A DNA stretch of 40,338 bases, taken from UHGV virus genome UHGV-0319604, one strand, 5' to 3'. Source of the stretch: a virus. A model generated the notes under the pieces. That model was not told the DNA's origin and did no database searches. It worked only from the letters and a program-made list of their open reading frames with translations. The position numbers and the translations under genes are program-made. Positions 1,883 to 22,489 of the stretch are shown here, piece after piece; position 1 is the first letter of the stretch, and each line of letters begins with the position of its first letter.

Positions 1883-2176
1883 TCAATCGGGCGTGTTGAT
1901 AAACTTCCTCACCAGCGCAGACTCCATTCGCCTGATACAGTCGCGTATCCTTGTCATTTGCACTTCGGGAAACTGACTCCGCCCCATCTCTTCCAGTACG
2001 CTGACAAGATGGTGATCCTGGACTTTGGTCGCCAGTACGCGAGCGCATGCACGCAATGATTCTCCGATACGCCGTTTTTCTATGGCTGCAAATGCTCGGC
2101 ACAGCTCCAGAGTTACCAGCGTGTCGGGAAATTCTGCAAATCGGGTATTGGCGATAACTTCCTTTGCTTTGATCAC
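1883..2176 (-). CDS. Hypothetical early protein (97 aa), GTG start overlapping upstream stop (GTGA)
   Basis: ORF in track (1883..2218); likely start is GTG at 2174-2176 overlapping the stop codon of the upstream 626-aa gene, suggesting translational coupling. Confidence 0.4.
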   Translation of the reverse strand: MIKAKEVIANTRFAEFPDTLVTLELCRAFAAIEKRRIGESLRACARVLATKVQDHHLVSVLEEMGRSQFPEVQMTRIRDCIRRMESALVRKFINTPD

Positions 2177-4053
2177 TCTGCAATCTCCTGCTGACTGATA
2201 ACGCTGCTGGCAAGCCACACGGCCATACCCGGTAGATCATCGTACTGATTGCAGTATGCAGGGTTAGCACATAACCCCTGCAGCGCGGCGGCCGTCAGCT
2301 GCTGATGATAGGTAAGGGCGAATGTTGATGGCTCAGGTACGGAAGCAGGGCGCTGTTCTTCTGGTTTGGCTTCGATCTCTGGGGGAGGCAAAACCACAGC
2401 AACAGGTGCCTCTTCAGTTCCTTCCTGCCGATATTGTTCTAAAATGCGCGTGAGATAATCGAATCGTGTTTCAGGGTTGTCGCTCCATTCTTCGAGCGCA
2501 TTCCAGACCAGATATTCAACATCGTCATCATCAATAATTTCTGGGGTCTCGCCATTTTCCAAAGCAAAAATATCAGTCATGATCATCATTGCAATGTGCG
2601 ATGAATCATGGCCTGTATTGGAGATCAGAAGCTCTGCCTCTTCCTCGTTAAAATAGGCAGTTCTCCCTGCCAGGGTATTTTCTACCAGCGCCTTAATTGC
2701 CTCCTCTCGTGCTGACAGCACAGGTTGATCGTCATTTTTGGCAGATGTAAGCGATTCGACTGTGAAGACGCCGCCGCCCAAGTTCTCCACCCGCGGTTGA
2801 TCCCCGGTTTGATTTTCAGGTGCAGGGCTCTGAGCGAATGCCTCTTTGAGTTCTTTGTCGAGTTGCGCAGCTTTGCCAGGGCAAACTGCTGGTGGCAGAG
2901 TTTCGCCCGGTACAGTCGATTCGGTTTCATCATTTTCTTTTTTCTCAGCATTGGTGCGAGGTTTTGGACGGCAGGCCGTATCAATTGTTTTCTGGTCAGG
3001 GTGCGCGTGGTCAGATTCAACCAACTCGCGATTGATGTACTCCCGTAATTTGATCGGATTGAGCCAGATGTCTTCTGGTGCTGACTTGATCAGGGCGATG
3101 ATGGACGCACGCGAATAGTCCAAAATTCCAGGGGTGCCGCGTAGCTGCGCCCACCATGCAGTAAAACGAGGATCCTGTGCGGCTTCCGCCATTGCTTTCG
3201 CTGGAATCATGTATTTATTCGGGATCCAGTAAATGTCGATCTCGTCGTACATACTCAGAATGGCAATAGCCACTTCGATACGCAGCGTAGAGAGGTTATG
3301 AACCAGATCCGGGCTACGGTCTGTCTTGTTGCCACCACCCAGCGTGGAGCCGGTGTCTGTACGGTTTTCTTCTGTGGTTGTGGTAGACTGAGGACGCTTA
3401 TCAACTGGTGTATCGATCCATTTAGCGATCTGCTTTTTGATGTCCGGCCACTGCGCAGATCCTTTGGTGTTCTCACGTAACCAGGAGAGTAATTGCTCCT
3501 GGCGTTCCGGCGCCAACTCAAGCGCGCGGCGCTCTTTTGCAAGTGCTTCTGCAAGCTCGCGGGCAAAGCTGGGTTCATCGTCATTCCTCAAATCGACGAT
3601 CTGGCCATACTGCGCTGAAGTGATTCCAGGGACCGGGCCGAACAGTGCCAGACAAGCTGCGCGGGATGCCTGGTCGAGCTGCGCAACGATTTTAATTTCT
3701 TCCTGAGTCTTGTTGTCCTCCCATTCTTCCTTTGCTTCAGTCTCTGGCTTTGGTGCAGCAGCTGGTTCACCGCGGTTGGTATTCCAGATAACGTGATCAC
3801 CAAAGAAATCAGAGCTAAACACATCAAGCTCAGGGCAGGGGAGATCATCATGGTGTTCCCAGATTTTCACCTTAAAATAATCATCAATATGTTCAGGATG
3901 TTCTGCCGCCAGCTTACCGAAAATAACGGCTTCAGCGATGGCTTTTGTGGCCGCATTAACTGCGGTGGCAAGTGGTTTTAAATCGGGATGTTTTTTTAAT
4001 GCTTTATCTTTTGGGAAGTAAGCACCACCAAATACTTTTAACTCAACAGACAT
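2173..4053 (-). CDS. Large acidic early-left protein, possibly RecE-family (exonuclease VIII-like) N-terminal/middle region without an obvious nuclease domain
   Basis: 626-aa ORF; segment GGGNKTDRSPDLVHNLSTLRIEV...DIYWIP...LDYSRASIIALIKSAP...ESDHAHPDQKTIDTAC resembles my recollection of RecE; gene order (Zn-ribbon small gene, then large gene, then xis/int) parallels the Rac prophage. Family assignment is from memory only. Confidence 0.4.
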   Translation of the reverse strand: MSVELKVFGGAYFPKDKALKKHPDLKPLATAVNAATKAIAEAVIFGKLAAEHPEHIDDYFKVKIWEHHDDLPCPELDVFSSDFFGDHVIWNTNRGEPAAAPKPETEAKEEWEDNKTQEEIKIVAQLDQASRAACLALFGPVPGITSAQYGQIVDLRNDDEPSFARELAEALAKERRALELAPERQEQLLSWLRENTKGSAQWPDIKKQIAKWIDTPVDKRPQSTTTTEENRTDTGSTLGGGNKTDRSPDLVHNLSTLRIEVAIAILSMYDEIDIYWIPNKYMIPAKAMAEAAQDPRFTAWWAQLRGTPGILDYSRASIIALIKSAPEDIWLNPIKLREYINRELVESDHAHPDQKTIDTACRPKPRTNAEKKENDETESTVPGETLPPAVCPGKAAQLDKELKEAFAQSPAPENQTGDQPRVENLGGGVFTVESLTSAKNDDQPVLSAREEAIKALVENTLAGRTAYFNEEEAELLISNTGHDSSHIAMMIMTDIFALENGETPEIIDDDDVEYLVWNALEEWSDNPETRFDYLTRILEQYRQEGTEEAPVAVVLPPPEIEAKPEEQRPASVPEPSTFALTYHQQLTAAALQGLCANPAYCNQYDDLPGMAVWLASSVISQQEIAE

Positions 4054-11299: not shown

Positions 11300-12953
11300 G
11301 CCAGTCAGTTACGGCTCAGTGTGCAGCGGCATCGAGGCCGCCAGCGTGGCATGGCATTGTTTGGGCTGGCAGCCAGCATGGTTCGCTGAGATAGAAAAAT
11401 TCCCCTCTGCTGTTCTGGCGTACCGCTGGCCGGACGTAAGCAATCTGGGTGATATGACGCAAATCCCCGCGGCAATCCGTGCCGGAAAAATCGAAGCGCC
11501 TGATGTGCTGGTGGGGGGCACCCCTTGCCAGGCGTTCAGCGTTGCGGGTTTACGTAATGGGCTGGCTGACGAACGCGGCCAGTTAACTTTGGCTTTTGTG
11601 GAGCTGGTTAATGCTATCGATGAACTACGCAGAGAACAGGGAAAAACTCCCGTCATCGTCGTCTGGGAAAACGTCCCCGGCGTATTCAGCAGCAAAGATA
11701 ACGCTTTCGGATGTTTTCTTGCAGGGCTTGCCGGCGAAAGCTGCGCGCTGGAATCACCAGGGAAGCGATGGTCAAACGCTGGTTATGTGCTGGGACCAGA
11801 AAGAGCTATTGCCTGGCGAGTGCTCGACGCTCAATTTTTCGGAGTGGCCCAACGACGCAGACGTGTGTTTGTTGTCGCAACAGCTCGAGGGGATATCGAT
11901 CCCGCAAAAATTCTTTTTGAGTCCGAAGGCCTGCGCCGGAATTCTCCGCCGCGCAGAAGTTCGCGGGAAGAAGTTGCCGGAACTTTTAAGGCTCGCGCTA
12001 ATTCAGGTGGCTGGGGACAAGATGTAGAACTTGCCGCAGGTGGCTATATGCAAGTTGTTGTTGGTAGTCACTGGGATAATCCATTGAACCCACACCCAAC
12101 ACTAAATCAGTCATTCAACACTGGTGGTATCGGTGCGAGTAACCAGGAATTATTCAGTCAGCGCGGAAGCGGGATTGTCGGAACGTATGTAAACACTAGC
12201 CGCACACTTTTGGGAAAACCTAACTGCAGCATGGCTGAAGACTTGGAAACTTTTGCCATACATGGAACCCAGGATCCGGATACTCTTCACGATATGGCAC
12301 ATGCCCTGGGGCGCAATCACGGGCAGAAAAACGCGGTTATTGCATTCAGTTCGAAAGATAGCGGCCATGATGCAGCCAGCGACATATCACCAACGCTTCG
12401 CGCAGGGAATAGCAGCAACAGCAATCAGAACGCTGGCGCACCGCCAGCAATAGCTTACGGCATTCCAGGAAACTGGATAGGCCGCGCTCCGCAAAACGGA
12501 GGAAATGCAGTAGAGCCTATGCATGATGTGTCTCCATGTCTGACCGTTGCGGATTGTCACGGCGTTGCATATGCCTTTAAGGCGGGGCAGGGTGCAAAAG
12601 CTAACGGCATAGGATACGCAGCCGAACAAGCCCCAACACTGACAAGCGCAAATAGCGGGAGCAATCAGGCTCCTGCAATCATGCAAAACATGGCCGTTCG
12701 CCGTCTGACTCCTGTCGAGTGCGAACGTCTGCAGGGCTTCCCAGATAACCACACCCTGATCCCCACACAAAAACGTAAGCAGCTCACCGCTGAAGAATAC
12801 GCCTACCTGCGCCACCACCGGCCAGAACTGACTGCAGAACAGGCTTACCGCCTGGCCGCTGATGGACCGCGCTATAAAGCGATCGGAAACTCAATGGCCG
12901 TACCGGTTATGCGGTGGATTGGTTCCCGCATACAGGAGGCGCTGCGTGCATAA
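11292..12953 (+). CDS. DNA (cytosine-5)-methyltransferase, orphan (no adjacent restriction gene), with long low-complexity target-recognition region
   Basis: C5-MTase motifs: GSVCSGIEAAS (motif I-like), GGTPCQAFSVAG (PCQ motif IV), ENV (motif VI), RRRVFVVA (motif VIII), RLTPVECERLQGFPDNH and AIGNSMAVPV (motifs IX/X). Confidence 0.85.
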   Translation: MSKPVSYGSVCSGIEAASVAWHCLGWQPAWFAEIEKFPSAVLAYRWPDVSNLGDMTQIPAAIRAGKIEAPDVLVGGTPCQAFSVAGLRNGLADERGQLTLAFVELVNAIDELRREQGKTPVIVVWENVPGVFSSKDNAFGCFLAGLAGESCALESPGKRWSNAGYVLGPERAIAWRVLDAQFFGVAQRRRRVFVVATARGDIDPAKILFESEGLRRNSPPRRSSREEVAGTFKARANSGGWGQDVELAAGGYMQVVVGSHWDNPLNPHPTLNQSFNTGGIGASNQELFSQRGSGIVGTYVNTSRTLLGKPNCSMAEDLETFAIHGTQDPDTLHDMAHALGRNHGQKNAVIAFSSKDSGHDAASDISPTLRAGNSSNSNQNAGAPPAIAYGIPGNWIGRAPQNGGNAVEPMHDVSPCLTVADCHGVAYAFKAGQGAKANGIGYAAEQAPTLTSANSGSNQAPAIMQNMAVRRLTPVECERLQGFPDNHTLIPTQKRKQLTAEEYAYLRHHRPELTAEQAYRLAADGPRYKAIGNSMAVPVMRWIGSRIQEALRA

Positions 12954-13302
12954 ATACATCATTACCCCAGTCGGAAAACCCCGCATGACCCGGGCTGATA
13001 AGTGGAAACAGCGCCCGCCGGTGATGCGCTATCGCATGTTCTGCGATGAAGCTAGGCTGCATGGAATCCAGGTGCCGGAGAGCGGCGCCCATATCACTTT
13101 CGTTTTGCCGATGCCGCAGAGCTGGAGCAAGAAAAAACGCGCAGCTATGGACGGCCAGCCACACCAGCAAAAGCCTGATCTGGACAACTTAACAAAATCG
13201 CTACTGGATGCCTTGTTTGAGGATGATTCCCACATTTGGGACGCCCGGACATCAAAAGTATGGGGCGAAACCGGAATGATAATTATCGAGGACATGAAAT
13301 GA
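12946..13302 (+). CDS. RusA-like Holliday junction resolvase
   Basis: GTG start after SD AGGAGG (12934-12939), overlapping the MTase stop; motifs PVGKPRMTRADKW and KPDLDNLTKSLLDALFEDDSHIWD resemble the RusA DLDN region. Confidence 0.55.
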   Translation: MHKYIITPVGKPRMTRADKWKQRPPVMRYRMFCDEARLHGIQVPESGAHITFVLPMPQSWSKKKRAAMDGQPHQQKPDLDNLTKSLLDALFEDDSHIWDARTSKVWGETGMIIIEDMK

Positions 13303-13904
13303 CACCACGCCAGAGACGCCAGTATTTTGAAGGGCTGGGAAAAACAGCAATGGCACCACGTAAGAGCTGGCTGGGGAAAAGTATTCTCCTGAATGATGTC
13401 CAGTCCGGTTGGATTAAATCTCTACTTACCGTGTGGGGCGAATGTGTTCGCGGCGGAACTGCCCCGGCGAAACCGTGTGGGCATTCGTGCTGGCAAGTGA
13501 TCAGGGGGAAGAACTGGTCAGATAAAGCGCTTGAACGTTTTACTGCAGCACTGAACCAGGCAAGGGAGGAGGGTTACCGCGGCGAACAGGCAATGCGGCG
13601 GGCACGCTCGATACTCTGGCCTGAACCATCGGCCAGCGTGATTGACGAGGCTATGAGTAATGATGATGCTGAGTTCATGGAGGACGTGGTGCTGCAGGCG
13701 TTTGATTTGAAGGATCCGGTTTATATCGTCGGGCGCCAGTATTACACCACCCGAAAAAAAATATCGGACATCACCAGAGATCTGCAGAGTATGGCGCCAT
13801 GGCTTACGGATAACGAGGCCAGAAAGCGGGTGCGCTGGTGCCTGGAGATATTCAGGGCAAAGGTTTTTCTGTCGGCGCGGAATGCCCTTAAAGAAAATTC
13901 ATGA
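13299..13904 (+). CDS. Putative late-gene antiterminator (Q-like)
   Basis: Position after RusA (ATGA overlap) and immediately before a promoter + short leader + terminator and the lysis cassette; Cys/His-containing ~200-aa protein. Assignment is mainly by synteny. Confidence 0.45.
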   Translation: MTPRQRRQYFEGLGKTAMAPRKSWLGKSILLNDVQSGWIKSLLTVWGECVRGGTAPAKPCGHSCWQVIRGKNWSDKALERFTAALNQAREEGYRGEQAMRRARSILWPEPSASVIDEAMSNDDAEFMEDVVLQAFDLKDPVYIVGRQYYTTRKKISDITRDLQSMAPWLTDNEARKRVRWCLEIFRAKVFLSARNALKENS

Positions 13905-14243: not shown

Positions 14244-14648
14244 ATGTCCGCAGAACCAATAACTGCAACGGTAACGGCGGGCGTGGCTGCTGGTACTACC
14301 GGAGTCACATTCGCCACGCTTTTCCCAGAGGCTACGCCTGCGGTGATGGTCTGCTCCCTCGCTGGGGCGGCGCTCTATATCCTCAGCTCTGAGGATCACA
14401 AAATCTGGAAACAGATACTCTTTGCGCTCATTTCCTTTATCGGTGGCATTTACTGTGCCAGTACTGCTTCAGAAATTATCGCCGCCATTATCAACGCCGG
14501 ACTGAATCAGCTTAGCCCGCCAGTCACTATCAAGGTATCGCCCGCGATTGGCGCACTGGCGGCTTCAACGGTTTCCGTGACAATTCTGCTGCGCATTCTT
14601 GCCCGCTCTAAAACAGGCAATCTGCCCGGCGTGAAGGGGGAAGAATGA
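14244..14648 (+). CDS. Putative holin (multi-TM membrane protein)
   Basis: 134-aa ORF with several hydrophobic helices, first gene after the late leader and upstream of the endolysin. Confidence 0.5.
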   Translation: MSAEPITATVTAGVAAGTTGVTFATLFPEATPAVMVCSLAGAALYILSSEDHKIWKQILFALISFIGGIYCASTASEIIAAIINAGLNQLSPPVTIKVSPAIGALAASTVSVTILLRILARSKTGNLPGVKGEE

Positions 14649-14941
14649 CGTGGCTGCTGCTGAACTTTCCATGGCTGTTGCTTCACCTTAATGCACTGGC
14701 CTGCATCATGATTTCGTTCCGGCTGATGTTTTTCCGTAAGCGCAGTATGCGGCGGCGCCGGGTAATGGAGATTCTGGCCTACGGGCTGATTCTGGCTCCT
14801 GCATACACGGCTTTCCGCATCTGGCACGGCGATTATGTGCAGGTCGATTACGGTGAAATCCTCATTAATGTTGTTGTCTGCGTCGCTGTCTGGCGTGCTG
14901 GCGGCAATATCGCTCGCATTACAGGAGAGAGCACAACGTGA
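14645..14941 (+). CDS. Small membrane protein of the lysis cassette (holin/antiholin-like)
   Basis: 98-aa hydrophobic ORF with an RRRR cluster, overlapping stops/starts with holin and endolysin genes. Confidence 0.4.
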   Translation: MTWLLLNFPWLLLHLNALACIMISFRLMFFRKRSMRRRRVMEILAYGLILAPAYTAFRIWHGDYVQVDYGEILINVVVCVAVWRAGGNIARITGESTT

Positions 14942-15567
14942 ACCAAACACAATTTCAAAAGGCGGCAGGTATCAGCGCCGGGCTGGCTTCGCGCTGGTTT
15001 CCGCAGATTGACAAAGTGATGGAGGAATACGGCATTACCGCTCCGCTTGACCAGGCAATGTTTATCGCACAGATGGGACATGAGTCCACGGGCTTTACCC
15101 GGCTGGTGGAAAACCTGAATTACGCGGCTGAAAACTTAGTGCCCACATTCGGCAGGCACCGCATCACTCCCCAGCAGGCCGCCGCGCTTGGCAGAACGGC
15201 AACACAACCGGCCAACCAGAAAGCGATCGCCAATCTTGTCTACGGGGGAGAGTGGGGCAAAGAGAAACTGGGGAATCAGGTCCCAGGTGACGGCTGGAAA
15301 TATCGTGGCCGTGGGCTGAAGCAAATCACCGGCTTGAGTAACTATCGCGCCTGCGGCCGGGCGCTCAAGCTGGATCTGGTGACACAGCCTGAGTTGCTGG
15401 AAATCGATGAAAACGCCGCTCGTTCAGCTGCGTGGTTCTACGTTTCCCGTGGTTGTCTTCTGCATTCCGGCGATGTTGAACGCGTGACGCTGCTTATTAA
15501 CGGCGGTAGTAATGGCCTGGATAAACGCCGCGCGCTGTTTAACCTGGCAAAATCGGTGCTGGTCTGA
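14938..15567 (+). CDS. Endolysin, glycoside hydrolase family 19 (chitinase-like lysozyme)
   Basis: 209-aa ORF with conserved segments FIAQMGHESTGF, GRGLKQITG, YRACG, typical of GH19 phage endolysins. Confidence 0.8.
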   Translation: MNQTQFQKAAGISAGLASRWFPQIDKVMEEYGITAPLDQAMFIAQMGHESTGFTRLVENLNYAAENLVPTFGRHRITPQQAAALGRTATQPANQKAIANLVYGGEWGKEKLGNQVPGDGWKYRGRGLKQITGLSNYRACGRALKLDLVTQPELLEIDENAARSAAWFYVSRGCLLHSGDVERVTLLINGGSNGLDKRRALFNLAKSVLV

Positions 15568-15574
15568 GGTGGCT

Positions 15575-15853
15575 ATGAGCATTATCGAAAAGTTTTTAGG
15601 CGGTATTGCTGCGCTGGTGGTCGTCGCGCTCAGCGGTTTTGCTGCTGGCAAAGTTCGCGGTCGCGGAAAAGCAGAAGCAAAAGCCAAACAGCAACGCACC
15701 GAAGAGAACGCCGCGGCAACGGTCGCAGCGGCAGAACGTAAAGCGGAAGTCACGAAAGAGGCCAGTAATGTACAGCAGAGTGTTAACCATATGTCTGGCG
15801 ACGATGTTGATCGCGAGCTGCGTGACACGTGGAAGCGTCCCGGTGGTGGTTGA
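15575..15853 (+). CDS. i-spanin (Rz-like)
   Basis: ATG after SD GAGGTGG; N-terminal TM helix (IIEKFLGGIAALVVVALSGFAAG) then charged helical region; follows the endolysin. Confidence 0.5.
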   Translation: MSIIEKFLGGIAALVVVALSGFAAGKVRGRGKAEAKAKQQRTEENAAATVAAAERKAEVTKEASNVQQSVNHMSGDDVDRELRDTWKRPGGG

Positions 15854-16398: not shown

Positions 16399-16426
16399 GC
16401 CATCTATATTCATAGGTGGCTTTTTT
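16399..16426 (+). terminator. Rho-independent terminator after the AT-rich moron
   Basis: gccatcta-tattca-taggtggc hairpin (one mismatch) followed by tttttt. Confidence 0.5.
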
Positions 16427-16454
16427 ATGCGCAGCACACATCAAAATACACATC

Positions 16455-16994
16455 ATGCAAACAATCATGTGCATCGGTAGCGGCCCGTCGCTGGCACCGA
16501 ATGACTGCTTGCGAGCTAACGATTCAGGTCTGCCAGTTATAGCCGTTAACAACAGTTGGGCTGCAGTGCCAGGCTGTCAGCACATTTATGCAGCAGACTG
16601 CTGCTGGTGGGAAGAATACGGCGCAGGCATAACATCCAACGCTGCCCGGTGGTGTGGTGATGAGTTCACGGCCAGGCGTTTTGGCATTAACTGGCTACCT
16701 TCTGCAATACCCGGTTCGTTTAATTCTGGTCAGCGAGCGATTGAGTTGGCGATCCACCTTGGCGCCAGCCGCGTTCTGTTGCTGGGCTATGACTGCTCAA
16801 TACGAAACGGCACCCACTGGCACGGCAACCACGCTCAGCTGTCCAACCCGGACAAATTCAGCGTAGCGCGCTGGCAGGATGAATTCTCCCGCCTCAGAGT
16901 TATTGCTGGTGGTGTCGAGATAATTAACTGCTCCCGCTTTACGCGGCTTACCTGCTTTCCCCGACAGTCCCTCGAGACTGCACTTTCTCTGTAG
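16455..16994 (+). CDS. Cst-II-like (GT42/DUF115-type) nucleotide-sugar transferase-fold protein
   Basis: N-terminal IMCIGSGPSLAPND resembles the GNGPSL motif at the start of Cst-II-type sialyltransferases; later FNSGQRAIELAIHLGASRVLLLGYDCS resembles the ITSG...IALGYKEIYLSGID segment of that family. Comparison from memory; start codon uncertain (16455 or 16467). Confidence 0.45.
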   Translation: MQTIMCIGSGPSLAPNDCLRANDSGLPVIAVNNSWAAVPGCQHIYAADCCWWEEYGAGITSNAARWCGDEFTARRFGINWLPSAIPGSFNSGQRAIELAIHLGASRVLLLGYDCSIRNGTHWHGNHAQLSNPDKFSVARWQDEFSRLRVIAGGVEIINCSRFTRLTCFPRQSLETALSL

Positions 16995-17001
16995 GAAACT
17001 T

Positions 17002-17868
17002 ATGAAAAGACGAAAGGTCTGCATCCGCGGGATGTATGGGCTTGGTGACTCTATTTACCAGCGGGCGTTTGTACGCCAGTTCCCCGGTGCGTTTCTGCGT
17101 ACACCCTGGCCGGAGCTTTACAGCGATCTCGATGTGAAATTTATTCGCTCTAATACTGCGCTCAGGACTCAGCGAAAAAACGAAGAGCAAACCAACGTGG
17201 AGTTTATTCCGGAACCATCGCGGCCGTCAGAGATACTGACAATTTTTTATGGCCCCGAAGAGCTGAGCAAAGGATCCATCATTGACGCCATGACCTGGCA
17301 ATTTGGCAAGATGGCCAGCGTTTTTGATCTGCCGTCATTCGGTGAATCGCCGGTACAGGTTGATAAGCCGGTTGCAGTAATCCGTCCGGCCACCGTTCGC
17401 AAAGAGTGGGCGAACCCCGCGCGAAATCCTGACCCCAAATACCTCGCGGAAGCCGCACGCGAGCTGCGTAAACATTTTTACGTTGTGAGCCTGGCTGATC
17501 TTGAAGAGGGTGAAGAGTGGCTGGTGGGTGAACTTCCGGAGGCCGATCTCTATCTGCACAAAGGCGAGCTGTCACTAACGGAAATGCTGGCGCTGGTGGA
17601 ACATGCCGCCGTTGTGGTTTCCGGGGTTGGCTGGGCGCTGCCAGCAGCTGTCTGCTACAAAACGCCTGTTTACATCGTTCAGGGTGGATGCGGGGCCCAC
17701 AATGCCCCTCACATCGTCACCGATCCGGAAATGGATCTTTCCCGCGTCGGCTGGGCGCAACCGGATGATTACTGCATGTGCGCGAGCATGGAGCACGACT
17801 GCAGCAAGCACATCACCGGTTTCCTCGATAAATTCAAAGGCTGGCTACATGACATTGTTCTCACATGA
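17002..17868 (+). CDS. Glycosyltransferase family 9-like (heptosyltransferase-like) protein
   Basis: N-terminal VCIRGMYGLGDSIYQRAFVRQF matches the GT9 I-R-x-x-x-LGD signature; C-terminal LSLTEMLALVEHAAVVVSGVGWALPAAVCYKTPVYIV matches the GT9 C-terminal donor-binding segment. Confidence 0.55.
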   Translation: MKRRKVCIRGMYGLGDSIYQRAFVRQFPGAFLRTPWPELYSDLDVKFIRSNTALRTQRKNEEQTNVEFIPEPSRPSEILTIFYGPEELSKGSIIDAMTWQFGKMASVFDLPSFGESPVQVDKPVAVIRPATVRKEWANPARNPDPKYLAEAARELRKHFYVVSLADLEEGEEWLVGELPEADLYLHKGELSLTEMLALVEHAAVVVSGVGWALPAAVCYKTPVYIVQGGCGAHNAPHIVTDPEMDLSRVGWAQPDDYCMCASMEHDCSKHITGFLDKFKGWLHDIVLT

Positions 17869-18499
17869 AATGCAAAACGGCCTTGTATGGCTGCCCGAGC
17901 TGGGCATTGGACGTTTTCCGGTACCACCAGAGCGGCCATACGACGCCAGTTATTTTGCAAAGTATCGGCAGATGGCGCAGACCAACATGGGGATTCAGCT
18001 GAATGCGGCACGTATCCAGCTGGTGGGCCGCCATCATCAGGGCAAAGTGCTCGACGTGGGGATCGGGTCCGGTCAGTTCGTGGAGACACGGCCTGATACA
18101 TGGGGTTATGACGTTAATCCTGAAGGGATCGCCTGGCTAAAAGCTGGTGGCCGCTGGGCTAACCTTTACGACCCTTATTTCCCTGACGATGATTTTCCTG
18201 CGCTGACGTTCTGGGATTCGCTGGAGCACATCGACGATCCAGAAGCAGCTGTTGCGCGTGCTGGTCAGTGGGTTTTTGTGTCTCTGCCTGTCTTCAAAAA
18301 TGCAGAACATATCCTGACGTCCCGGCATTACCGCAAGGACGAGCACATCTGGTATTTCACCGACGAAGGCATCCGGCGCTGGTTTGACGCGCAGGGTTTC
18401 GCCTGTGCTGAACACAACACCATTGAGAGCATGTTGGGGCGGGATGGCATCAGCAGCTATGCATTCCGGAGGGTCAGCAATGCCAGCAAGAACGCCTAA
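17849..18499 (+). CDS. Class I SAM-dependent methyltransferase
   Basis: Motif I-like KVLDVGIGSGQF, followed by YDVNPEG and FWDSLEHIDDP; start ATG 17849 overlaps upstream stop by 20 nt. Confidence 0.6.
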   Translation: MTLFSHEMQNGLVWLPELGIGRFPVPPERPYDASYFAKYRQMAQTNMGIQLNAARIQLVGRHHQGKVLDVGIGSGQFVETRPDTWGYDVNPEGIAWLKAGGRWANLYDPYFPDDDFPALTFWDSLEHIDDPEAAVARAGQWVFVSLPVFKNAEHILTSRHYRKDEHIWYFTDEGIRRWFDAQGFACAEHNTIESMLGRDGISSYAFRRVSNASKNA

Positions 18500-18848
18500 G
18501 GCATGTCGTAAGCGAGGTTGCAGGCAGACCACAACGGACCGCAGCGGATACTGCGATGACCACCGTGGCGAGGGCTGGCGACAGTACAAACCCGGCGTGT
18601 CACGTCATCAGCGCGGCTATGGTGCGTCATGGGATAAGACCCGTCTCCGTATTCTCAAAAGAGACCGGGGGTTATGCCAGGAATGTTTGCGCCGTGGCGC
18701 AATAACCGAGGCGACCAGCGTTGACCACAGGCTGCCGCTGGCGCACGGAGGCAGCGACAGTGACGACAACCTTGAAAGCCTGTGTACCCCATGTCATCGG
18801 GCGAAGACGGCGCGAGAGCGCCTGTCAGGCAGGCGGGGGGGAGGGTAA
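18480..18848 (+). CDS. HNH endonuclease (terminase-associated)
   Basis: CRKRGC ... CDDH ... CQEC ... VDHRLPLAHGGSDSDDNLESLCTPCHRAK; directly upstream of the small terminase gene. Confidence 0.8.
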   Translation: MPARTPKACRKRGCRQTTTDRSGYCDDHRGEGWRQYKPGVSRHQRGYGASWDKTRLRILKRDRGLCQECLRRGAITEATSVDHRLPLAHGGSDSDDNLESLCTPCHRAKTARERLSGRRGGG

Positions 18849-18956
18849 ATCTCTCCAGCCTTTGCCCCTCCGGACTGCCCGCCTCATCAAATTTTTACGC
18901 GCCCAAAATAAGAAACTTTTTTCCTGAAGGTTTCGCCTATTGAATTGGAGGTTTTA

Positions 18957-19394
18957 ATGGGTGGTGTTGTGCGATCTTCCGGTGGCGGCCGTAAGCGTAA
19001 TTTACCCTCAAACCTGAAGAGCAAACTGACCAGGATTACGCCGCCGGATGAATTAATGAGCGACATTGCGATCCGCATCTGGAAAACGCAGAGCAAAATT
19101 TTAATCGAACGTGGCGTCTTTGATCTGGAGGATGCGCCTCTACTCTTGGCGTACTGCAATGCGTTTCACCTGATGGTTGAGGCCGAAAAAGTCATCGCAG
19201 AAGACGGGCTGACAGTATCAAGCGAAATGGGGGGTGAGAAAAAGCACCCTGCAGTTAACGTCCGTAATGACTCCGTTTCTCAGCTCGCTCGTCTGGGGTC
19301 ACTTCTCGGGTTAGACCCGCTTAGCCGCATAAGAATGACCAGCGGTAAAAATGATCCGGACGATGAAGGGAATGAATTTGATGAGTTTGACTGA
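18957..19394 (+). CDS. Terminase small subunit
   Basis: ATG after SD GGAGG; ~145-aa protein directly upstream of and abutting the large terminase gene. Confidence 0.65.
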   Translation: MGGVVRSSGGGRKRNLPSNLKSKLTRITPPDELMSDIAIRIWKTQSKILIERGVFDLEDAPLLLAYCNAFHLMVEAEKVIAEDGLTVSSEMGGEKKHPAVNVRNDSVSQLARLGSLLGLDPLSRIRMTSGKNDPDDEGNEFDEFD

Positions 19395-21124
19395 TGGCTA
19401 CATATCCGAACGTCAATGCGGCGAACCAGTATGCGCGGGACGTCGTGAACGGGAAGATACTGGCCTGCCGGTTAACCATTCTTGCCTGTCAGCGACATCT
19501 GGACGACCTGGAACGCGCCAGAGATCCACGCTGGCCTTACCGCTTCGATAAAAATAAAGCAGAACGTTTCCTTCGCTTCTCCCAGAAAATGCCGCACACA
19601 TCCGGTGAGTGGGCTCGCCGGAAGCTGCGCATAGAGTTTGAGCCCTGGCAGAAATTTGCGCTTGGCGTGCCGTTTGGCTGGGTGCGTAAGGACAATGGTT
19701 TTCGTCGTTTCACTGAGATTTACATCGAGGTACCACGTAAAAACGGCAAATCTGCGATCGCGGCGGCCGTTGGTAACTATATGTTCTGTGCCGATGGCGA
19801 GTACGCAGCGGAAGTTTACTGTGGCGCCACGACGGAAAAACAGGCCTGGAAAGTCTTTGCACCTGCTCTGGCAATGGTGAAAAAGCTTCCGGCCCTGCGT
19901 CAGAAGTTCAGCATCAAACCCTGGGCGAAGAAAATGACGCGCCCGGATGGCTCCCTGTTCGCGCCTGTTATCGGCGACCCCGGCGACGGTGATTCACCCT
20001 CCTGCGCCATCATCGACGAGTACCACGAGCACGATACTGACGCGCTCTATACCACGATGACCACCGGGATGGGGGCAAGGGAGCAGCCCATCACGCTGAT
20101 CATCACCACGGCGGGTTTCGATATCGCCTCACCGTGTTATGAGAAGCGCACCCAGGTGGTCGAGATACTGGAGCGCATCAGAGAAGGTGGTGAAAACGAG
20201 GCAATTTTCGGGATCATCTATACCCTGGATGATGACGATGACTGGACACAGCCGGAAGCACTGATAAAAGCCAACCCGAATTACAACATTTCGGTGAAAG
20301 AGGGGTTCCTCAAGGCCAAGCAGCTGCTGGCGATGTCCACACCCAGCCAGACCAACAAAATACTCACCAAGCATTTCAATAAATGGGTGAGCTCTAAAGC
20401 GGCATTCTACAACCTTCAGAAGTGGATGGCTGCGGCAGATAAGACGCTCAAACTGTCCGATTTTGCGGGAGAAGAGTGTTATCTCGGCATAGACCTGGCA
20501 TCAAAACTTGACCTTAACGCAGTGGTGCCGGTCTTCCGCCGGGAAATCGCCGGGGTAAGCCATTATTACTGCGTTTCGCCTCTCTTCTGGGTGCCGGAAG
20601 ATACCGTCTATGCCACGGATCCGGCATTGAAAACGATCGCCGACCGTTACCAGTCCTTTGTTAATCAGGGCGTGCTGGTTCCGTCGGACGGGGCCGAGGT
20701 GGATTACCGCCTTATTTTCGAAGCGATCCTGAAATTACGTGAGACCGTGAAAATAGCTGCGAGCCCGATTGACCCTTATGGCGCCACCGGCCTTTCTCAT
20801 ATGTTGCAGGATGAAGGGCTTGAGCCCGTCACCATCACCCAGAACTACACCAACATGAGCGACCCGATGCGTGAAATTGAAGCTGCGATCGCTGCTGGCC
20901 GCTTCCATCATGACGGTAATCCGCTGATGACCTGGTGCATTTCTAACGTTGTCGGCAAGTATTTACCGGGTAGTGATGATGTTGTGCGTCCGGTGAAAGA
21001 GGGTGCTGGCAACAAAATCGATGGCGCAGTTGGCCTGATGATGGGTGTTGGCCGTGCGATGCTGAATGAGCCGAAAGACTTCCTTTCTAACCTCGATCCT
21101 GATGAGGAACTGTTATTCCTGTGA
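19394..21124 (+). CDS. Terminase large subunit
   Basis: 576-aa ORF; Walker A-like VPRKNGKS, acidic IIDEYHEH segment, C-terminal nuclease-like region; followed by the portal gene. Confidence 0.9.
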   Translation: MATYPNVNAANQYARDVVNGKILACRLTILACQRHLDDLERARDPRWPYRFDKNKAERFLRFSQKMPHTSGEWARRKLRIEFEPWQKFALGVPFGWVRKDNGFRRFTEIYIEVPRKNGKSAIAAAVGNYMFCADGEYAAEVYCGATTEKQAWKVFAPALAMVKKLPALRQKFSIKPWAKKMTRPDGSLFAPVIGDPGDGDSPSCAIIDEYHEHDTDALYTTMTTGMGAREQPITLIITTAGFDIASPCYEKRTQVVEILERIREGGENEAIFGIIYTLDDDDDWTQPEALIKANPNYNISVKEGFLKAKQLLAMSTPSQTNKILTKHFNKWVSSKAAFYNLQKWMAAADKTLKLSDFAGEECYLGIDLASKLDLNAVVPVFRREIAGVSHYYCVSPLFWVPEDTVYATDPALKTIADRYQSFVNQGVLVPSDGAEVDYRLIFEAILKLRETVKIAASPIDPYGATGLSHMLQDEGLEPVTITQNYTNMSDPMREIEAAIAAGRFHHDGNPLMTWCISNVVGKYLPGSDDVVRPVKEGAGNKIDGAVGLMMGVGRAMLNEPKDFLSNLDPDEELLFL

Positions 21125-21271
21125 AATCACTAATTATCGATGTGGCCGGGCTGGCAGGCTTCGGCGCGCTGGTGGGAGGTGTTTACCTCAAATTTGGCGC
21201 TGCGGTCGCCCTTATGGCTGGTGGCAGTGGCCTGCTGTTGTGGGCATTACTGGCGGCCAGGAGAACAAAAA

Positions 21272-22489
21272 ATGCTGATTGATGCCATTTTCAGAAGCAA
21301 CTCTCTGGAAAACCCAGCTGTACCGATCACTGTCGAAGCTGCCGAAAATGACGGGATTTTTAACGGTGACGTGATCGTAAATCCCCGGACGGCAATGAAA
21401 CTGGCGGCGGTGTATGCCTGTATCTACGTTATTTCGTCCAACGTTGCGCAGATGCCCCTGCACGTCATGCGGCGCACCGGGAAAAAGGTTGAAACCGCCC
21501 GTGATCACCCCGTTTTTTACCTGGTTCACGATGAGCCAAACGCCTGGCAGACCAGCTATAAATGGCGTGAGCTGAAGCAGCGACACATTCTGGGCTGGGG
21601 TAACGGCTACACACGTGTTAACCGCCATCGGCGAACGGGTGAAGTCACTGGACTGGAAGCCTGTATGCCGTGGGAAACAACGCTGCTGAACACCGGCGGG
21701 CGCTACACCTACGGTGTTTATAACGAAGAGGGGTCATTCGCCATCAATCCTGACGACATGATCCACGTCAGGGCGCTGGGCAACGATCAGAAAATGGGGC
21801 TCAGTCCGGTACTGCAGCACGCTGAAACCATCGGAATGGGCATGAGCGGGCAGAAGTATACGGAAAGTTTTTTCAGCGGTAATGCCAGGCCAGCGGGCAT
21901 CGTTTCAGTAAAAGGGGAGTTGAATGACAACTCCTGGAAAAGACTGAAAGAGATGTGGCAAAAAGCTACAGCGATGCTGCGCAGCCAGGAAAACAGGACG
22001 ATGCTGCTCCCGGCTGATCTGGACTATAAAGCGCTGACTGTCTCGCCGGTCGATGCCCAGCTCATCGACATGATGAAGCTCAACCGCTCGATGATCGCCG
22101 GGATATTTAACGTACCAGCGCACATGATAAACGACCTCGAAAAAGCCACCTTCTCCAACATCTCCGAACAGGCGATTCAGTTTGTCCGCTACACGATGAT
22201 GCCGTGGGTGACGAACTGGGAGCAGGAGCTTAATCGTCGGTTATTTACCCGCGCCGAACGGGCTGCAGGGTATTACGTGCGCTTTAACCTGGCAGGTCTG
22301 CTGCGCGGTACCGCCAAAGAGCGCGCTGAGTTCTATCACTACGCCATCACCGATGGCTGGATGAGCCGCAACGAGGCGCGCGCCTTTGAGGATATGAACC
22401 CGAAAGACGGCCTTGATGAAATGCTCGTCAGCGTCAACGCCTCCCAGCCAGTCAAAACCAAAACCCAGGAGAACACTCCAGATGAGTGA
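21272..22489 (+). CDS. Portal protein (HK97 family)
   Basis: ATG after SD AGGAG; ~405 aa; position between terminase and prohead protease. Confidence 0.85.
   Translation: MLIDAIFRSNSLENPAVPITVEAAENDGIFNGDVIVNPRTAMKLAAVYACIYVISSNVAQMPLHVMRRTGKKVETARDHPVFYLVHDEPNAWQTSYKWRELKQRHILGWGNGYTRVNRHRRTGEVTGLEACMPWETTLLNTGGRYTYGVYNEEGSFAINPDDMIHVRALGNDQKMGLSPVLQHAETIGMGMSGQKYTESFFSGNARPAGIVSVKGELNDNSWKRLKEMWQKATAMLRSQENRTMLLPADLDYKALTVSPVDAQLIDMMKLNRSMIAGIFNVPAHMINDLEKATFSNISEQAIQFVRYTMMPWVTNWEQELNRRLFTRAERAAGYYVRFNLAGLLRGTAKERAEFYHYAITDGWMSRNEARAFEDMNPKDGLDEMLVSVNASQPVKTKTQENTPDE

What the first reader, a model, noticed from the sequence alone, without database searches (positions are those of the whole stretch)
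21121..21282. Possible 53-aa membrane ORF between large terminase and portal genes
A GTG-initiated ORF overlapping the TerL stop (GTGA) encodes VKSLIIDVAGLAGFGALVGGVYLKFGAAVALMAGGSGLLLWALLAARRTKNAD, two Gly-rich hydrophobic helices, and ends overlapping the portal start. It fills the otherwise unexplained 147-bp gap but has no clear RBS.
Basis: seen in the sequence. Interest (0 to 1): 0.25.

Follow-up and report, generated by a model that had tools for sequence, protein, structure and literature searches.

The report
Conserved tiny membrane gene before portal
The 53-codon reading frame between the phage's DNA-packaging enzyme gene and its portal gene is a real, conserved gene for a tiny two-helix membrane protein; databases already list it as a hypothetical protein, and its function has never been established.

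Summary
ORF 21121-21282 (+) starts at a GTG that overlaps the TerL stop (GTGA), encodes exactly the 53 aa quoted, and ends 11 nt inside the portal gene (ATG 21272).

It is a real gene:
- The frame is intact in 87 of 87 related loci.
- It is the only one of six frames free of stops in all 51 unique sequences.
- The third codon position varies most, and median dN/dS is 0.21, against about 1 or more in the other frames.

AlphaFold2 gives a helical hairpin (pLDDT 89). Hydropathy and charge distribution indicate two transmembrane helices with both ends in the cytoplasm.

The protein matches phrog_7105 over its full length (E=4e-25). The identical protein is already in NCBI as "hypothetical protein [Enterobacteriaceae]". 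Distant homologues fill the same slot: E. coli e14 YmfR, phiP27 L37, ST64B Sb3, phiE125 gp3 and D3 Orf3. Sfi21 DUF1056 is an analogue by position only.

The start overlaps the TerL stop (NTGA) in 61 of 61 sequence contexts, which indicates translational coupling and explains the weak RBS. There is no promoter and no GC anomaly, and a complete lysis cassette lies elsewhere in the window.

Function is not established. My best guess (about 0.35) is a late inner-membrane factor linked to portal or terminase. This is a known family, so interest is low to moderate.

The parts
21121..21282 (+). Small CDS: 53 codons plus TGA. Product (f)MKSLIIDVAGLAGFGALVGGVYLKFGAAVALMAGGSGLLLWALLAARRTKNAD. Family phrog_7105.
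   Evidence: sequence and ORF; phrog_7105, E=4.2e-25, positions 1-52/52; identical protein in NCBI; frame conservation and purifying selection.
21121..21124 (+). GTGA: the start codon of the small CDS overlaps the TerL stop codon (site of translational coupling).
   Evidence: The NTGA overlap (38 ATGA, 22 GTGA, 1 TTGA) is found in 61/61 unique contexts. An upstream ORF of at least 100 codons ends at that TGA in 89/89 loci. The same 4-nt overlap is seen in 6/6 distant metagenomic members.
21104..21108 (+). GAGGA, a weak Shine-Dalgarno-like motif 12-13 nt upstream of the GTG. It is not conserved in the family, and it forms the 3' arm of a 5-bp hairpin at 21091-21107.
21142..21189 (+). Predicted transmembrane helix 1 (residues about 8-23, VAGLAGFGALVGGVYL), rich in Gly and Ala. 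Invariant G13; near-invariant G15, G20, Y22, L23.
21199..21261 (+). Predicted transmembrane helix 2 (residues about 27-47, AAVALMAGGSGLLLWALLAAR), followed by a basic cytoplasmic tail (RRTKNAD).
   Evidence: mean 2.96 K+R in the C-terminal tail against 0.32 in the loop.
21260..21282 (+). Junction with the portal gene: portal SD GGAG (21260-21263) lies inside the Arg codons of the small CDS; portal ATG is at 21272; the 11-nt overlap runs to the small CDS stop TGA (21280-21282).
   Evidence: SD plus ATG/GTG and N-terminus M/V-L-[IL]-D-A-[ILM]-F conserved in F1055, SfV, the Klebsiella phage, Evi and Morganella; EPP-1 begins VFLDAMF.
19394..21124 (+). Large terminase gene (context). Its last 15 codons (21077-21121, DFLSNLDPDEELLFL) are inherited together with the small CDS and the portal gene.
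   Evidence: (TerL_ATPase and TerL_nuclease).
21272..22489 (+). HK97-family portal gene (context).
   Evidence: PF04860, E=2e-100.

Best explanation
Shown (confidence at least 0.95): 21121-21282 is a genuine protein-coding gene of a temperate HK97-like/SfV-like enterobacterial prophage. It encodes a 53-aa protein of the conserved phage family phrog_7105.

Strongly inferred:
- The product is a helical hairpin with two transmembrane helices in the inner membrane. The N-terminus (MK..I.D) and the basic C-tail face the cytoplasm, and the periplasmic turn (YL-x-FG) is only 1-3 residues long.
- The gene has no promoter of its own and lies in the late operon.
- It is translated by ribosomes that terminate at the TerL stop and reinitiate at the overlapping GTG (GTGA). 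Its level is therefore tied to that of TerL.
- Its 3' end carries the portal's SD and overlaps the portal start.

Inferred, with probability about 0.35: because the gene has kept this exact slot through deep divergence, it most likely acts at the inner membrane in head assembly or DNA packaging. In SfV-type exchanges it also moves as one block with the TerL C-terminal tail and the portal gene. One possibility is that it tethers or nucleates the portal, or the terminase-prohead complex, at the membrane, in the manner T4 gp40 supports the membrane-bound gp20 portal initiator. Another is that co-translational membrane insertion holds the late mRNA, and so portal synthesis, at the membrane. The protein is dispensable in some lineages: HK97 and Pseudomonas phage zjk6 lack it.
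For: Coding and constraint:
- The ORF is intact in 87/87 loci.
- It is the only stop-free frame in 51/51 unique interiors.
- Median dN/dS is 0.21, against 1.0 and 1.7 in the other + frames.
- pN/pS is 0.38, against 0.16 for the adjacent portal.

Family:
- phrog_7105, E=4e-25, full length.
- 362 clusters at 90% identity.
- 207 representatives at 50% identity in 1.84e9 proteins, nearly all 45-80 aa.

Membrane hairpin:
- GRAVY 1.01; residues 3-47 are hydrophobic apart from D7 and K24.
- AF2 helices 2-25 and 27-52, pLDDT 89.
- K+R averages 2.96 in the C-tail and 0.32 in the loop.

Coupling:
- NTGA overlap in 61/61 contexts; the upstream ORF ends there in 89/89 loci; no SD in 34/61 contexts.
- No sigma-70-like promoter in 20300-21700.
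- GC is the same as in the neighbouring genes.

Synteny:
- 6/6 distant metagenomic members overlap the upstream gene by 4 nt, which is TerL wherever Pfam data exist, and the next gene starts at or just inside their 3' end. It is a Pfam-confirmed portal in 3 of the 6.
- The same slot is filled by homologues in phiE125, e14/YmfR, P27, ST64B, YeP1 and D3, and by an analogue in Sfi21.

Co-inheritance:
- TerL is 35% identical to that of E. coli phage 733R5. Its last 15 aa, the small ORF (60% to the near-identical Klebsiella phage copy) and the portal (83%) are conserved.

Precedent for portal assembly at the membrane: T4 gp20 with gp40 and YidC (PMC9958956).
Against: - There is no experimental evidence of translation, localisation or function for any member. 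Every database name is 'hypothetical' or 'membrane protein'.
- From established knowledge of HK97 assembly (not tested here), HK97 proheads assemble and package DNA without any membrane protein. HK97 and phage zjk6 lack the gene, so it is not a universal requirement.
- Only about 7 residues at each end would be exposed to the cytoplasm, which leaves little surface to bind a portal or terminase.
- Physical adjacency alone could explain co-inheritance with the portal.
- Part of the conservation of the basic tail may reflect the portal SD embedded in its codons.
Confidence: 0.35

Rival explanations
1. An accessory membrane effector that acts within the bilayer. It would be a pinholin-like or viroporin-like oligomer, or a modulator of holin timing, that alters membrane potential or lysis timing late in infection, unrelated to head assembly.
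For: - The protein is small, with two TM helices, a predicted N-in/C-in topology and a short basic C-tail.
- Both helices are rich in Gly, Ala, Ser and Thr (0.53 and 0.55 in the window protein). Glycines G13, G26 and G35 are invariant and G15 and G20 near-invariant.
- From my own knowledge, this resembles SAR-type TMD1 and glycine-zipper TMD2 of the phage 21 pinholin S21 68.
- The gene is on the same late transcript as the lysis genes (context).
Against: - No match to any holin family in Pfam, PHROGs or NCBIfam.
- The window already has a complete cassette at 14244-15853: two holin-family genes, an endolysin and an Rz-like spanin.
- The gene never sits in a lysis cassette. It always lies between TerL and portal, in hosts from Enterobacterales to Burkholderia and Pseudomonas.
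- Expression coupled to TerL suggests low copy number.
Confidence: 0.2
2. A superinfection-exclusion or other host-benefit 'moron' membrane protein. PHROGs places the related phrog_502 in this category. The model would be HK97 gp15, a small inner-membrane protein encoded among structural genes.
For: - phrog_502, which the protein hits at E=4e-6, is labelled 'moron, auxiliary metabolic gene and host takeover; membrane protein'.
- From my own knowledge, small prophage membrane proteins often exclude phage DNA entry.
Against: The gene shows none of the hallmarks of a moron:
- no own promoter, and no terminator beyond a 5-bp hairpin inside the TerL tail that is within chance expectation;
- GC equal to the flanking genes;
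- start and stop overlap the neighbouring late genes;
- position fixed rather than patchy.

There is also no PADLOC hit. The PHROG label is an automatic category, not a tested function.
Confidence: 0.12
3. The peptide itself has little function. Translating the ORF would serve mainly to pass ribosomes from TerL to the portal start, setting the portal:TerL ratio, or to hold the late mRNA at the membrane.
For: - The ORF overlaps on both sides (4 nt with TerL, 11 nt with portal), and the portal SD lies inside it.
- Constraint is weaker than on the portal (pN/pS 0.38 against 0.16).
Against: - Amino-acid-level purifying selection, with invariant D7, G13, G26, L31, G35 and L43.
- The two-TM architecture is retained even between families with barely detectable similarity.
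- The portal has its own strong SD.
- HK97 and zjk6 achieve coupling by a direct TerL/portal overlap, without a spacer gene.
Confidence: 0.08
4. Not a gene. It would be a chance ORF in a non-coding spacer, an N-terminal extension of the portal as annotated in SfV, or a structured RNA.
For: - SfV RefSeq leaves the ORF unannotated and starts the portal upstream.
- ORFs of this size are common by chance: 186 in the window.
Against: - The portal frame upstream of the ATG shows pN/pS of about 1.05 and carries stops in 30/51 sequences.
- No Rfam hit, and the folding z-score is -0.5.
- All the evidence for coding listed under the best explanation.
Confidence: 0.01

Closest known systems
phrog_7105 (PHROGs v4; unnamed, 'unknown function'); annotated copies include Salmonella phage F1055 WAQ79502.1, Edwardsiella phage EPP-1 WJN66818.1 and Klebsiella phage vB_VIPKPNMC05 XIT99990.1
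   Same: Full-length HMM match (E=4e-25). Same length (51-53 aa), same slot, and the same overlaps with TerL and portal.
   Different: Nothing of substance. The window copy starts with GTG rather than the more common ATG. The family has no Pfam or NCBIfam model and no known function.
YmfR of the E. coli K-12 e14 prophage and its phage homologues (phrog_502 'membrane protein': phiP27 L37, ST64B Sb3, Yersinia YeP1, Burkholderia phiE125 gp3)
   Same: - Two-TM hairpin of about 60 aa between the terminase large subunit and an HK97-family portal.
- Cross-family HMM hits: window to phrog_502 E=4e-6, phiE125 gp3 to phrog_7105 E=1e-6.
- A broad family profile scores them 19-34 bits, against a shuffle maximum of 6-12 bits.
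- YmfR is annotated in this slot in 1355 of 5426 complete E. coli genomes.
   Different: - Only about 22-38% identity.
- The YmfR-type genes have their own SD and lie about 10 nt after TerL rather than overlapping it.
- They accompany a different TerL tail and a portal only about 33% identical.
- Function is equally unknown.
Pseudomonas phage D3 Orf3 (phrog_4810)
   Same: 54-aa two-TM hairpin with a 4-nt overlap with TerL and an 8-nt overlap with portal. Weak profile similarity: 12.5 bits against a shuffle maximum of 5.9. The Evi homologue hits phrog_4810 at E=3e-4.
   Different: Similarity is marginal, so homology is probable but not proven.
Pfam DUF1056 / phrog_1142 (Streptococcus phage Sfi21 orf59c)
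   Same: 59-aa two-TM protein in the same slot, between TerL and an HK97-type portal followed by a protease and the major head protein.
   Different: No detectable sequence similarity (-0.7 bits; no Pfam hit). It is an analogue by position and architecture only.
T4 gp40 (membrane-associated chaperone for the gp20 portal initiator)
   Same: It is the functional model for the best explanation: a phage-encoded factor that supports portal-initiated head assembly at the inner membrane (PMC9958956).
   Different: No sequence comparison was made. The size and gene context differ. No evidence that HK97-like heads assemble at the membrane was found in the searches made here.
Pinholin S21 68 of phage 21 (class II holin)
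   Same: Small size, two TMDs, N-in/C-in topology, helices rich in Gly and Ala, and a basic C-tail (the properties of S21 are from my own knowledge).
   Different: Not in a lysis cassette, no SAR endolysin partner, and no holin-family HMM match.

Membership tests
phrog_7105 | Significant full-length match to the family HMM | tested here: met
   E=4.2e-25, 88 bits, residues 1-52 on profile positions 1-52/52.
phrog_7105 | Gene position between TerL and an HK97-family portal, overlapping both | tested here: met
YmfR / phrog_502 'membrane protein' superfamily | Sequence homology to the phrog_502 profile | tested here: inconclusive
   E=3.9e-6 (27 bits) over residues 4-51. Reciprocal hits are 1e-6 for phiE125 gp3 but only 0.047 for YmfR itself. 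A broad profile scores YmfR 18.9 bits against a shuffle maximum of 12.4. A distant relationship is probable.
YmfR / phrog_502 'membrane protein' superfamily | Two-TM hairpin of about 50-60 aa between TerL and portal | tested here: met
Holin / pinholin | Match to a holin family profile | tested here: not met
   No holin family among the Pfam, PHROG or NCBIfam hits at E up to 1.
Holin / pinholin | Location in a lysis cassette next to an endolysin | tested here: not met
   The lysis cassette is at 14244-15853, about 5 kb upstream, and is complete without this gene.
Holin / pinholin | Lethal, timed hole formation or membrane depolarisation | not testable with these tools
   Requires expression and lysis assays.
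Moron / superinfection-exclusion gene | Autonomous transcription unit (own promoter and terminator), atypical composition, patchy distribution | tested here: not met
   No promoter-like site. GC is 0.54, like the flanks. Overlaps both neighbours. Present in 87/87 close relatives.
Pfam DUF1056 | Match to PF06341 | tested here: not met
   No Pfam hit at E up to 1. The Sfi21 DUF1056 protein scores -0.7 bits against the family profile.
Known anti-phage defence proteins (PADLOC) | Match to a PADLOC model | tested here: not met
   0 families at E up to 1.
T4 gp40-like portal assembly chaperone | Required for membrane-bound assembly of the portal initiator | not testable with these tools
   A functional property. 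Only the literature precedent was read; no sequence comparison was made.

The most novel reading that the evidence does not exclude
A micro-protein of two TM helices in the TerL-portal slot is an overlooked, ancient component of many HK97-like head modules. Members include phrog_7105, YmfR/phrog_502 and D3 Orf3, and by analogy DUF1056 in phages of Gram-positive hosts. It would anchor or nucleate the portal, or the terminase-prohead packaging complex, or the late mRNA through co-translational insertion, at the inner membrane. Head assembly or packaging in these phages would then be membrane-associated, as in T4, rather than purely cytoplasmic.
Probability: 0.2. Interest if true: 0.6.

Novelty: already known. 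Interest (0 to 1): 0.25.

Why it matters
For annotation, the gap between TerL and portal is a true CDS and should be called. SfV RefSeq misses it and mis-starts the portal gene as a result.

For biology, this is a very widespread phage micro-protein with a strictly fixed position. Its relative YmfR sits in about a quarter of complete E. coli genomes. No function is known, and it lies inside one of the best-studied virus assembly modules. If it links the portal or terminase to the membrane, it would add a component to the HK97-type assembly and packaging pathway. If it is a membrane effector, it would be a new class outside lysis cassettes. Either answer is testable with a single silent-in-TerL point mutation.

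Tried and rejected
- tblastn of the 53-aa protein against the phage collection found nothing, presumably because BLAST's low-complexity filter masks this Gly/Ala/Leu-rich query. I replaced it with portal-anchored locus retrieval and my own scans.
- Megablast of the region against complete E. coli genomes gave no match.
- Pfam, NCBIfam and PADLOC have no family for it.
- Foldseek of the AF2 hairpin against the PDB gave nothing with E below 5. A bare helical hairpin is uninformative.
- Rfam and RNA folding of 21080-21300 showed no RNA family and a z-score of -0.5, so an RNA-element reading is rejected.
- The portal N-terminal extension, as annotated in SfV, is rejected. That frame is unconstrained and interrupted in most relatives.
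- Longer 'fusion' proteins in the family hits (P0136, P0090, P0114, P0038 and others) read as the small protein joined by a frame change to TerL-tail or portal sequence. All are one- or two-contig clusters from metagenome assemblies. I take them as frameshift artefacts, not Rosetta-stone fusions.
- Literature searches for a characterised small membrane protein between terminase and portal, for ymfR and for DUF1056 found no functional study.
- My TerL-tail dN/dS slice was out of frame and is disregarded.
Full report
**What is there.**
- Window 21121-21282 (+) is an ORF of 53 codons plus a stop. Its GTG start overlaps the stop codon of the large terminase gene (TerL 19394-21124...CTG TGA read as GTGA).
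- The downstream gene is an HK97-family portal (PF04860, E=2e-100). Its true start is ATG 21272, preceded by GGAG at 21260-21263.
- That start, its SD and the N-terminus M/V-L-[IL]-D-A-[ILM]-F-R-S are conserved in relatives (EPP-1 has VFLDAMF).
- The TerL-portal gap is therefore 147 bp, as stated. The small ORF runs 11 nt into the portal gene.
- Upstream lie an HNH endonuclease (18384-18848) and a Terminase_4 small subunit (18945-19394). Downstream lie a prohead protease and the major capsid protein. This is a typical HK97/SfV-like late head module inside a prophage about 40 kb long.

**Is it more than chance?**
An ORF of this size is not remarkable in itself: the window has 186 six-frame ORFs of 40-80 aa. 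Comparison with relatives settles the matter.
- blastn found the region in 152 phage records. Many of them annotate a 'hypothetical protein' of 52-53 aa between TerL and portal.
- I anchored on the portal protein and retrieved 80 IMG/VR loci. With the GenBank phages, 87 of 87 loci with enough upstream sequence carry the intact ORF.
- Among 51 unique interior sequences, only this frame is free of stops in all. The other five frames have stops in 30-51 of 51.
- Among 37 unique 162-nt alleles, entropy by codon position is 0.65/0.44/1.19. pN/pS is 0.40 and median dN/dS 0.21 in this frame, against medians of 1.0 and 1.7 in the other two + frames.
- Constraint is real but weaker than on the adjacent portal (pN/pS 0.38 against 0.16).
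- There is no Rfam match and no unusual RNA folding.
This is a gene.

**What the protein looks like.**
- GRAVY is 1.01. Residues 3-47 are hydrophobic apart from D7 and K24, and are followed by a basic tail, RRTKNAD.
- In a 28-sequence family alignment, M1, D7, G13, G26, L31, G35 and L43 are invariant. K2, L11, G15, G20, Y22, L23 and R48 are nearly so.
- AlphaFold2 with that alignment gives two helices (2-25 and 27-52) packed as a hairpin, mean pLDDT 89.
- The C-tail carries on average 2.96 Lys+Arg, against 0.32 in the turn. By the positive-inside rule both termini face the cytoplasm and the YL-x-FG turn faces the periplasm.
- Both helices are rich in Gly, Ala, Ser and Thr (about 0.5), which suggests tight helix-helix packing or oligomerisation.
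- A Foldseek search of the model was uninformative.

**Family and relatives.**
- The protein matches phrog_7105 ('unknown function') end to end (E=4e-25). It matches phrog_502 ('membrane protein') more weakly (E=4e-6). Pfam, NCBIfam and PADLOC have nothing.
- The identical sequence is already in NCBI as 'MULTISPECIES: hypothetical protein [Enterobacteriaceae]' on 123 contigs. Its 90% cluster spans Enterobacter, Citrobacter, Klebsiella and Salmonella.
- A profile search found 362 clusters at 90% identity. It found 207 representatives at 50% identity among 1.84 billion proteins, nearly all 45-80 aa.
- In six of six distant metagenomic members examined, the gene overlaps the gene upstream by 4 nt, and the next gene starts at or just inside its 3' end. 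Pfam confirms TerL upstream in four of the six and the portal downstream in three. The other contigs were too short for family data.
- phrog_502 contains Burkholderia phiE125 gp3, phiP27 L37, ST64B Sb3, Yersinia YeP1 and the e14 prophage protein YmfR. RefSeq annotates YmfR between 'terminase large subunit' and 'phage portal protein' in 1355 of 5426 complete E. coli genomes.
- A broad family profile gives these scores:

| Protein | Profile score (bits) | Shuffle maximum (bits) |
|---|---|---|
| phiE125 gp3 | 33.5 | 5.9 |
| P27 L37 | 21.0 | not run |
| YeP1 | 20.9 | not run |
| ST64B Sb3 | 19.0 | not run |
| YmfR | 18.9 | 12.4 |
| Pseudomonas D3 Orf3 | 12.5 | 5.9 |
| Sfi21 orf59c | -0.7 | 8.5 |

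- Streptococcus phage Sfi21 orf59c (Pfam DUF1056, phrog_1142) is a 59-aa two-TM protein in the same slot. It shows no sequence similarity, so it is an analogue by position only.
- HK97 itself and Pseudomonas phage zjk6 lack the gene; there TerL and portal overlap directly.

**Expression logic.**
- The start overlaps the TerL stop as NTGA in 61 of 61 unique contexts (38 ATGA, 22 GTGA, 1 TTGA). In 89 of 89 loci a long upstream ORF ends at that TGA.
- SD-like motifs are absent in 34 of 61 contexts. In the window the only candidate is GAGGA, 12-13 nt upstream.
- There is no sigma-70-like promoter within 800 bp upstream, no credible terminator, and GC matches the flanks. The gene is therefore an integral part of the late operon, not a moron.
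- Its last codons (Arg-Arg/Gly) encode the portal's SD.

**Linkage.**
- The window's TerL is only 35% identical to that of E. coli phage vB_EcoS-733R5 and its Klebsiella relatives. Nucleotide similarity resumes about 48 nt before the TerL stop.
- From that point the last 15 residues (DFLSxxDPDExLLxL), the small ORF (60% identity to the near-identical Klebsiella phage copy) and the portal (83%) are conserved.
- Conversely, phiE125, ST64B and P27 share the TerL body but have a different tail, a YmfR-type small protein and a divergent portal.
- The TerL tail, the micro-protein and the portal therefore travel as one block. This fits a functional connection but does not prove one, because adjacency alone could produce it.

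**Function.**
- No member has been studied functionally. My literature searches found no study for ymfR or DUF1056 and nothing on a small membrane protein between terminase and portal.
- A holin role is unlikely. A complete lysis cassette (two holin-family genes, an endolysin and an Rz-like spanin) lies at 14244-15853, and the protein matches no holin family.
- A moron or exclusion role is unlikely for the reasons given under 'Expression logic'.
- My preferred inference (about 0.35) is a low-abundance inner-membrane hairpin made late, together with TerL, that acts in portal- or terminase-linked steps at the membrane. The precedent is T4, where the gp20 portal initiator assembles on the inner membrane with gp40 and contacts YidC (PMC9958956).
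- The main rival (about 0.2) is a membrane effector that acts inside the bilayer, pinholin-like or viroporin-like.
- Other rivals are exclusion (about 0.12) and a mainly translational-coupling role (about 0.08).
- A G21123A mutant kills the start and is silent for TerL. It would discriminate among these ideas.

**Verdict.**
The feature is an already catalogued conserved phage gene of unknown function. It is ordinary as an annotation finding. Wider interest is limited to the unresolved role of a ubiquitous micro-protein in the head module.

Noticed in passing
L002 (SfV NC_003444) 1812-1973 and 1915-3189: The SfV RefSeq and GenBank records do not annotate the small ORF. They start the portal 16 codons too early, at GTG 1915 in a non-conserved stretch. 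The conserved start is GTG 1963, preceded by GGGGGA.
   Followed up: partly
window 21077-21121 (last 15 codons of TerL): A mosaic junction lies inside TerL. The C-terminal tail DFLSNLDPDEELLFL is inherited with the small ORF and the portal, while the TerL body is exchanged (35% identity to E. coli phage 733R5). Phages with a similar TerL body (phiE125, ST64B, P27) have a different tail and a different portal. This fits the tail being the portal-docking element.
   Followed up: partly
L008 (Halomonas phage QHHSV-1) 1828-1920: The homologous ORF is cut to 30 aa in the GenBank record by a single-base loss (GCC CTG read as GCC TGA). An intact 63-aa homologue (P0139) exists in metagenomes. This is probably a sequencing error or a recent frameshift.
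   Followed up: partly
L108 (Vibrio phage Cla) 1614-1763: The annotated 49-aa 'hypothetical protein' before the portal aligns only from the end of TM1 of the family. Its start codon is probably called too far downstream.
   Followed up: no
window 21091-21107: A 5-bp hairpin (CCTC...GAGG) pairs the only SD-like motif upstream of the GTG start. It could reinforce dependence on TerL translation, but it is within chance expectation (1 found against 1.3 in shuffles).
   Followed up: no
window 21122-21274: TerL and portal are in the same reading frame here, and that frame has no stop between the TerL TGA and the portal ATG. This is not conserved: the 52-aa alleles such as F1055 put the portal in another frame, and 30 of 51 relatives have stops. 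It is most likely coincidental.
   Followed up: yes
window 14244-15853: The lysis cassette holds two tandem holin-family genes (phrog_198, 134 aa; phrog_217, 98 aa), a 209-aa endolysin with chitinase-like hits, and an Rz-like spanin. A Q-like antiterminator (13236-13904) and a RusA-like resolvase (12862-13302) lie upstream.
   Followed up: partly
window 16416-18499: Between the lysis cassette and the HNH/terminase genes lie ORFs that match a PHROG labelled alpha-2,3-sialyltransferase (16416-16994), phrog_6804 of unknown function (17002-17868) and a methyltransferase (match begins at residue 84 of ORF 17603-18499, so the true start is probably near 17850).
   Followed up: no
L103 (Sfi21) 2424-2603; L104 (D3) 2107-2271; L106 (ST64B) 1573-1755; L110 (P27) 1506-1688: The TerL-portal slot is filled by a two-TM protein of 50-60 aa in several PHROG families across Proteobacteria and Firmicutes phages (phrog_7105, 502, 4810 and 1142/DUF1056). 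This recurrent architecture seems not to have been discussed in the literature I searched.
   Followed up: partly
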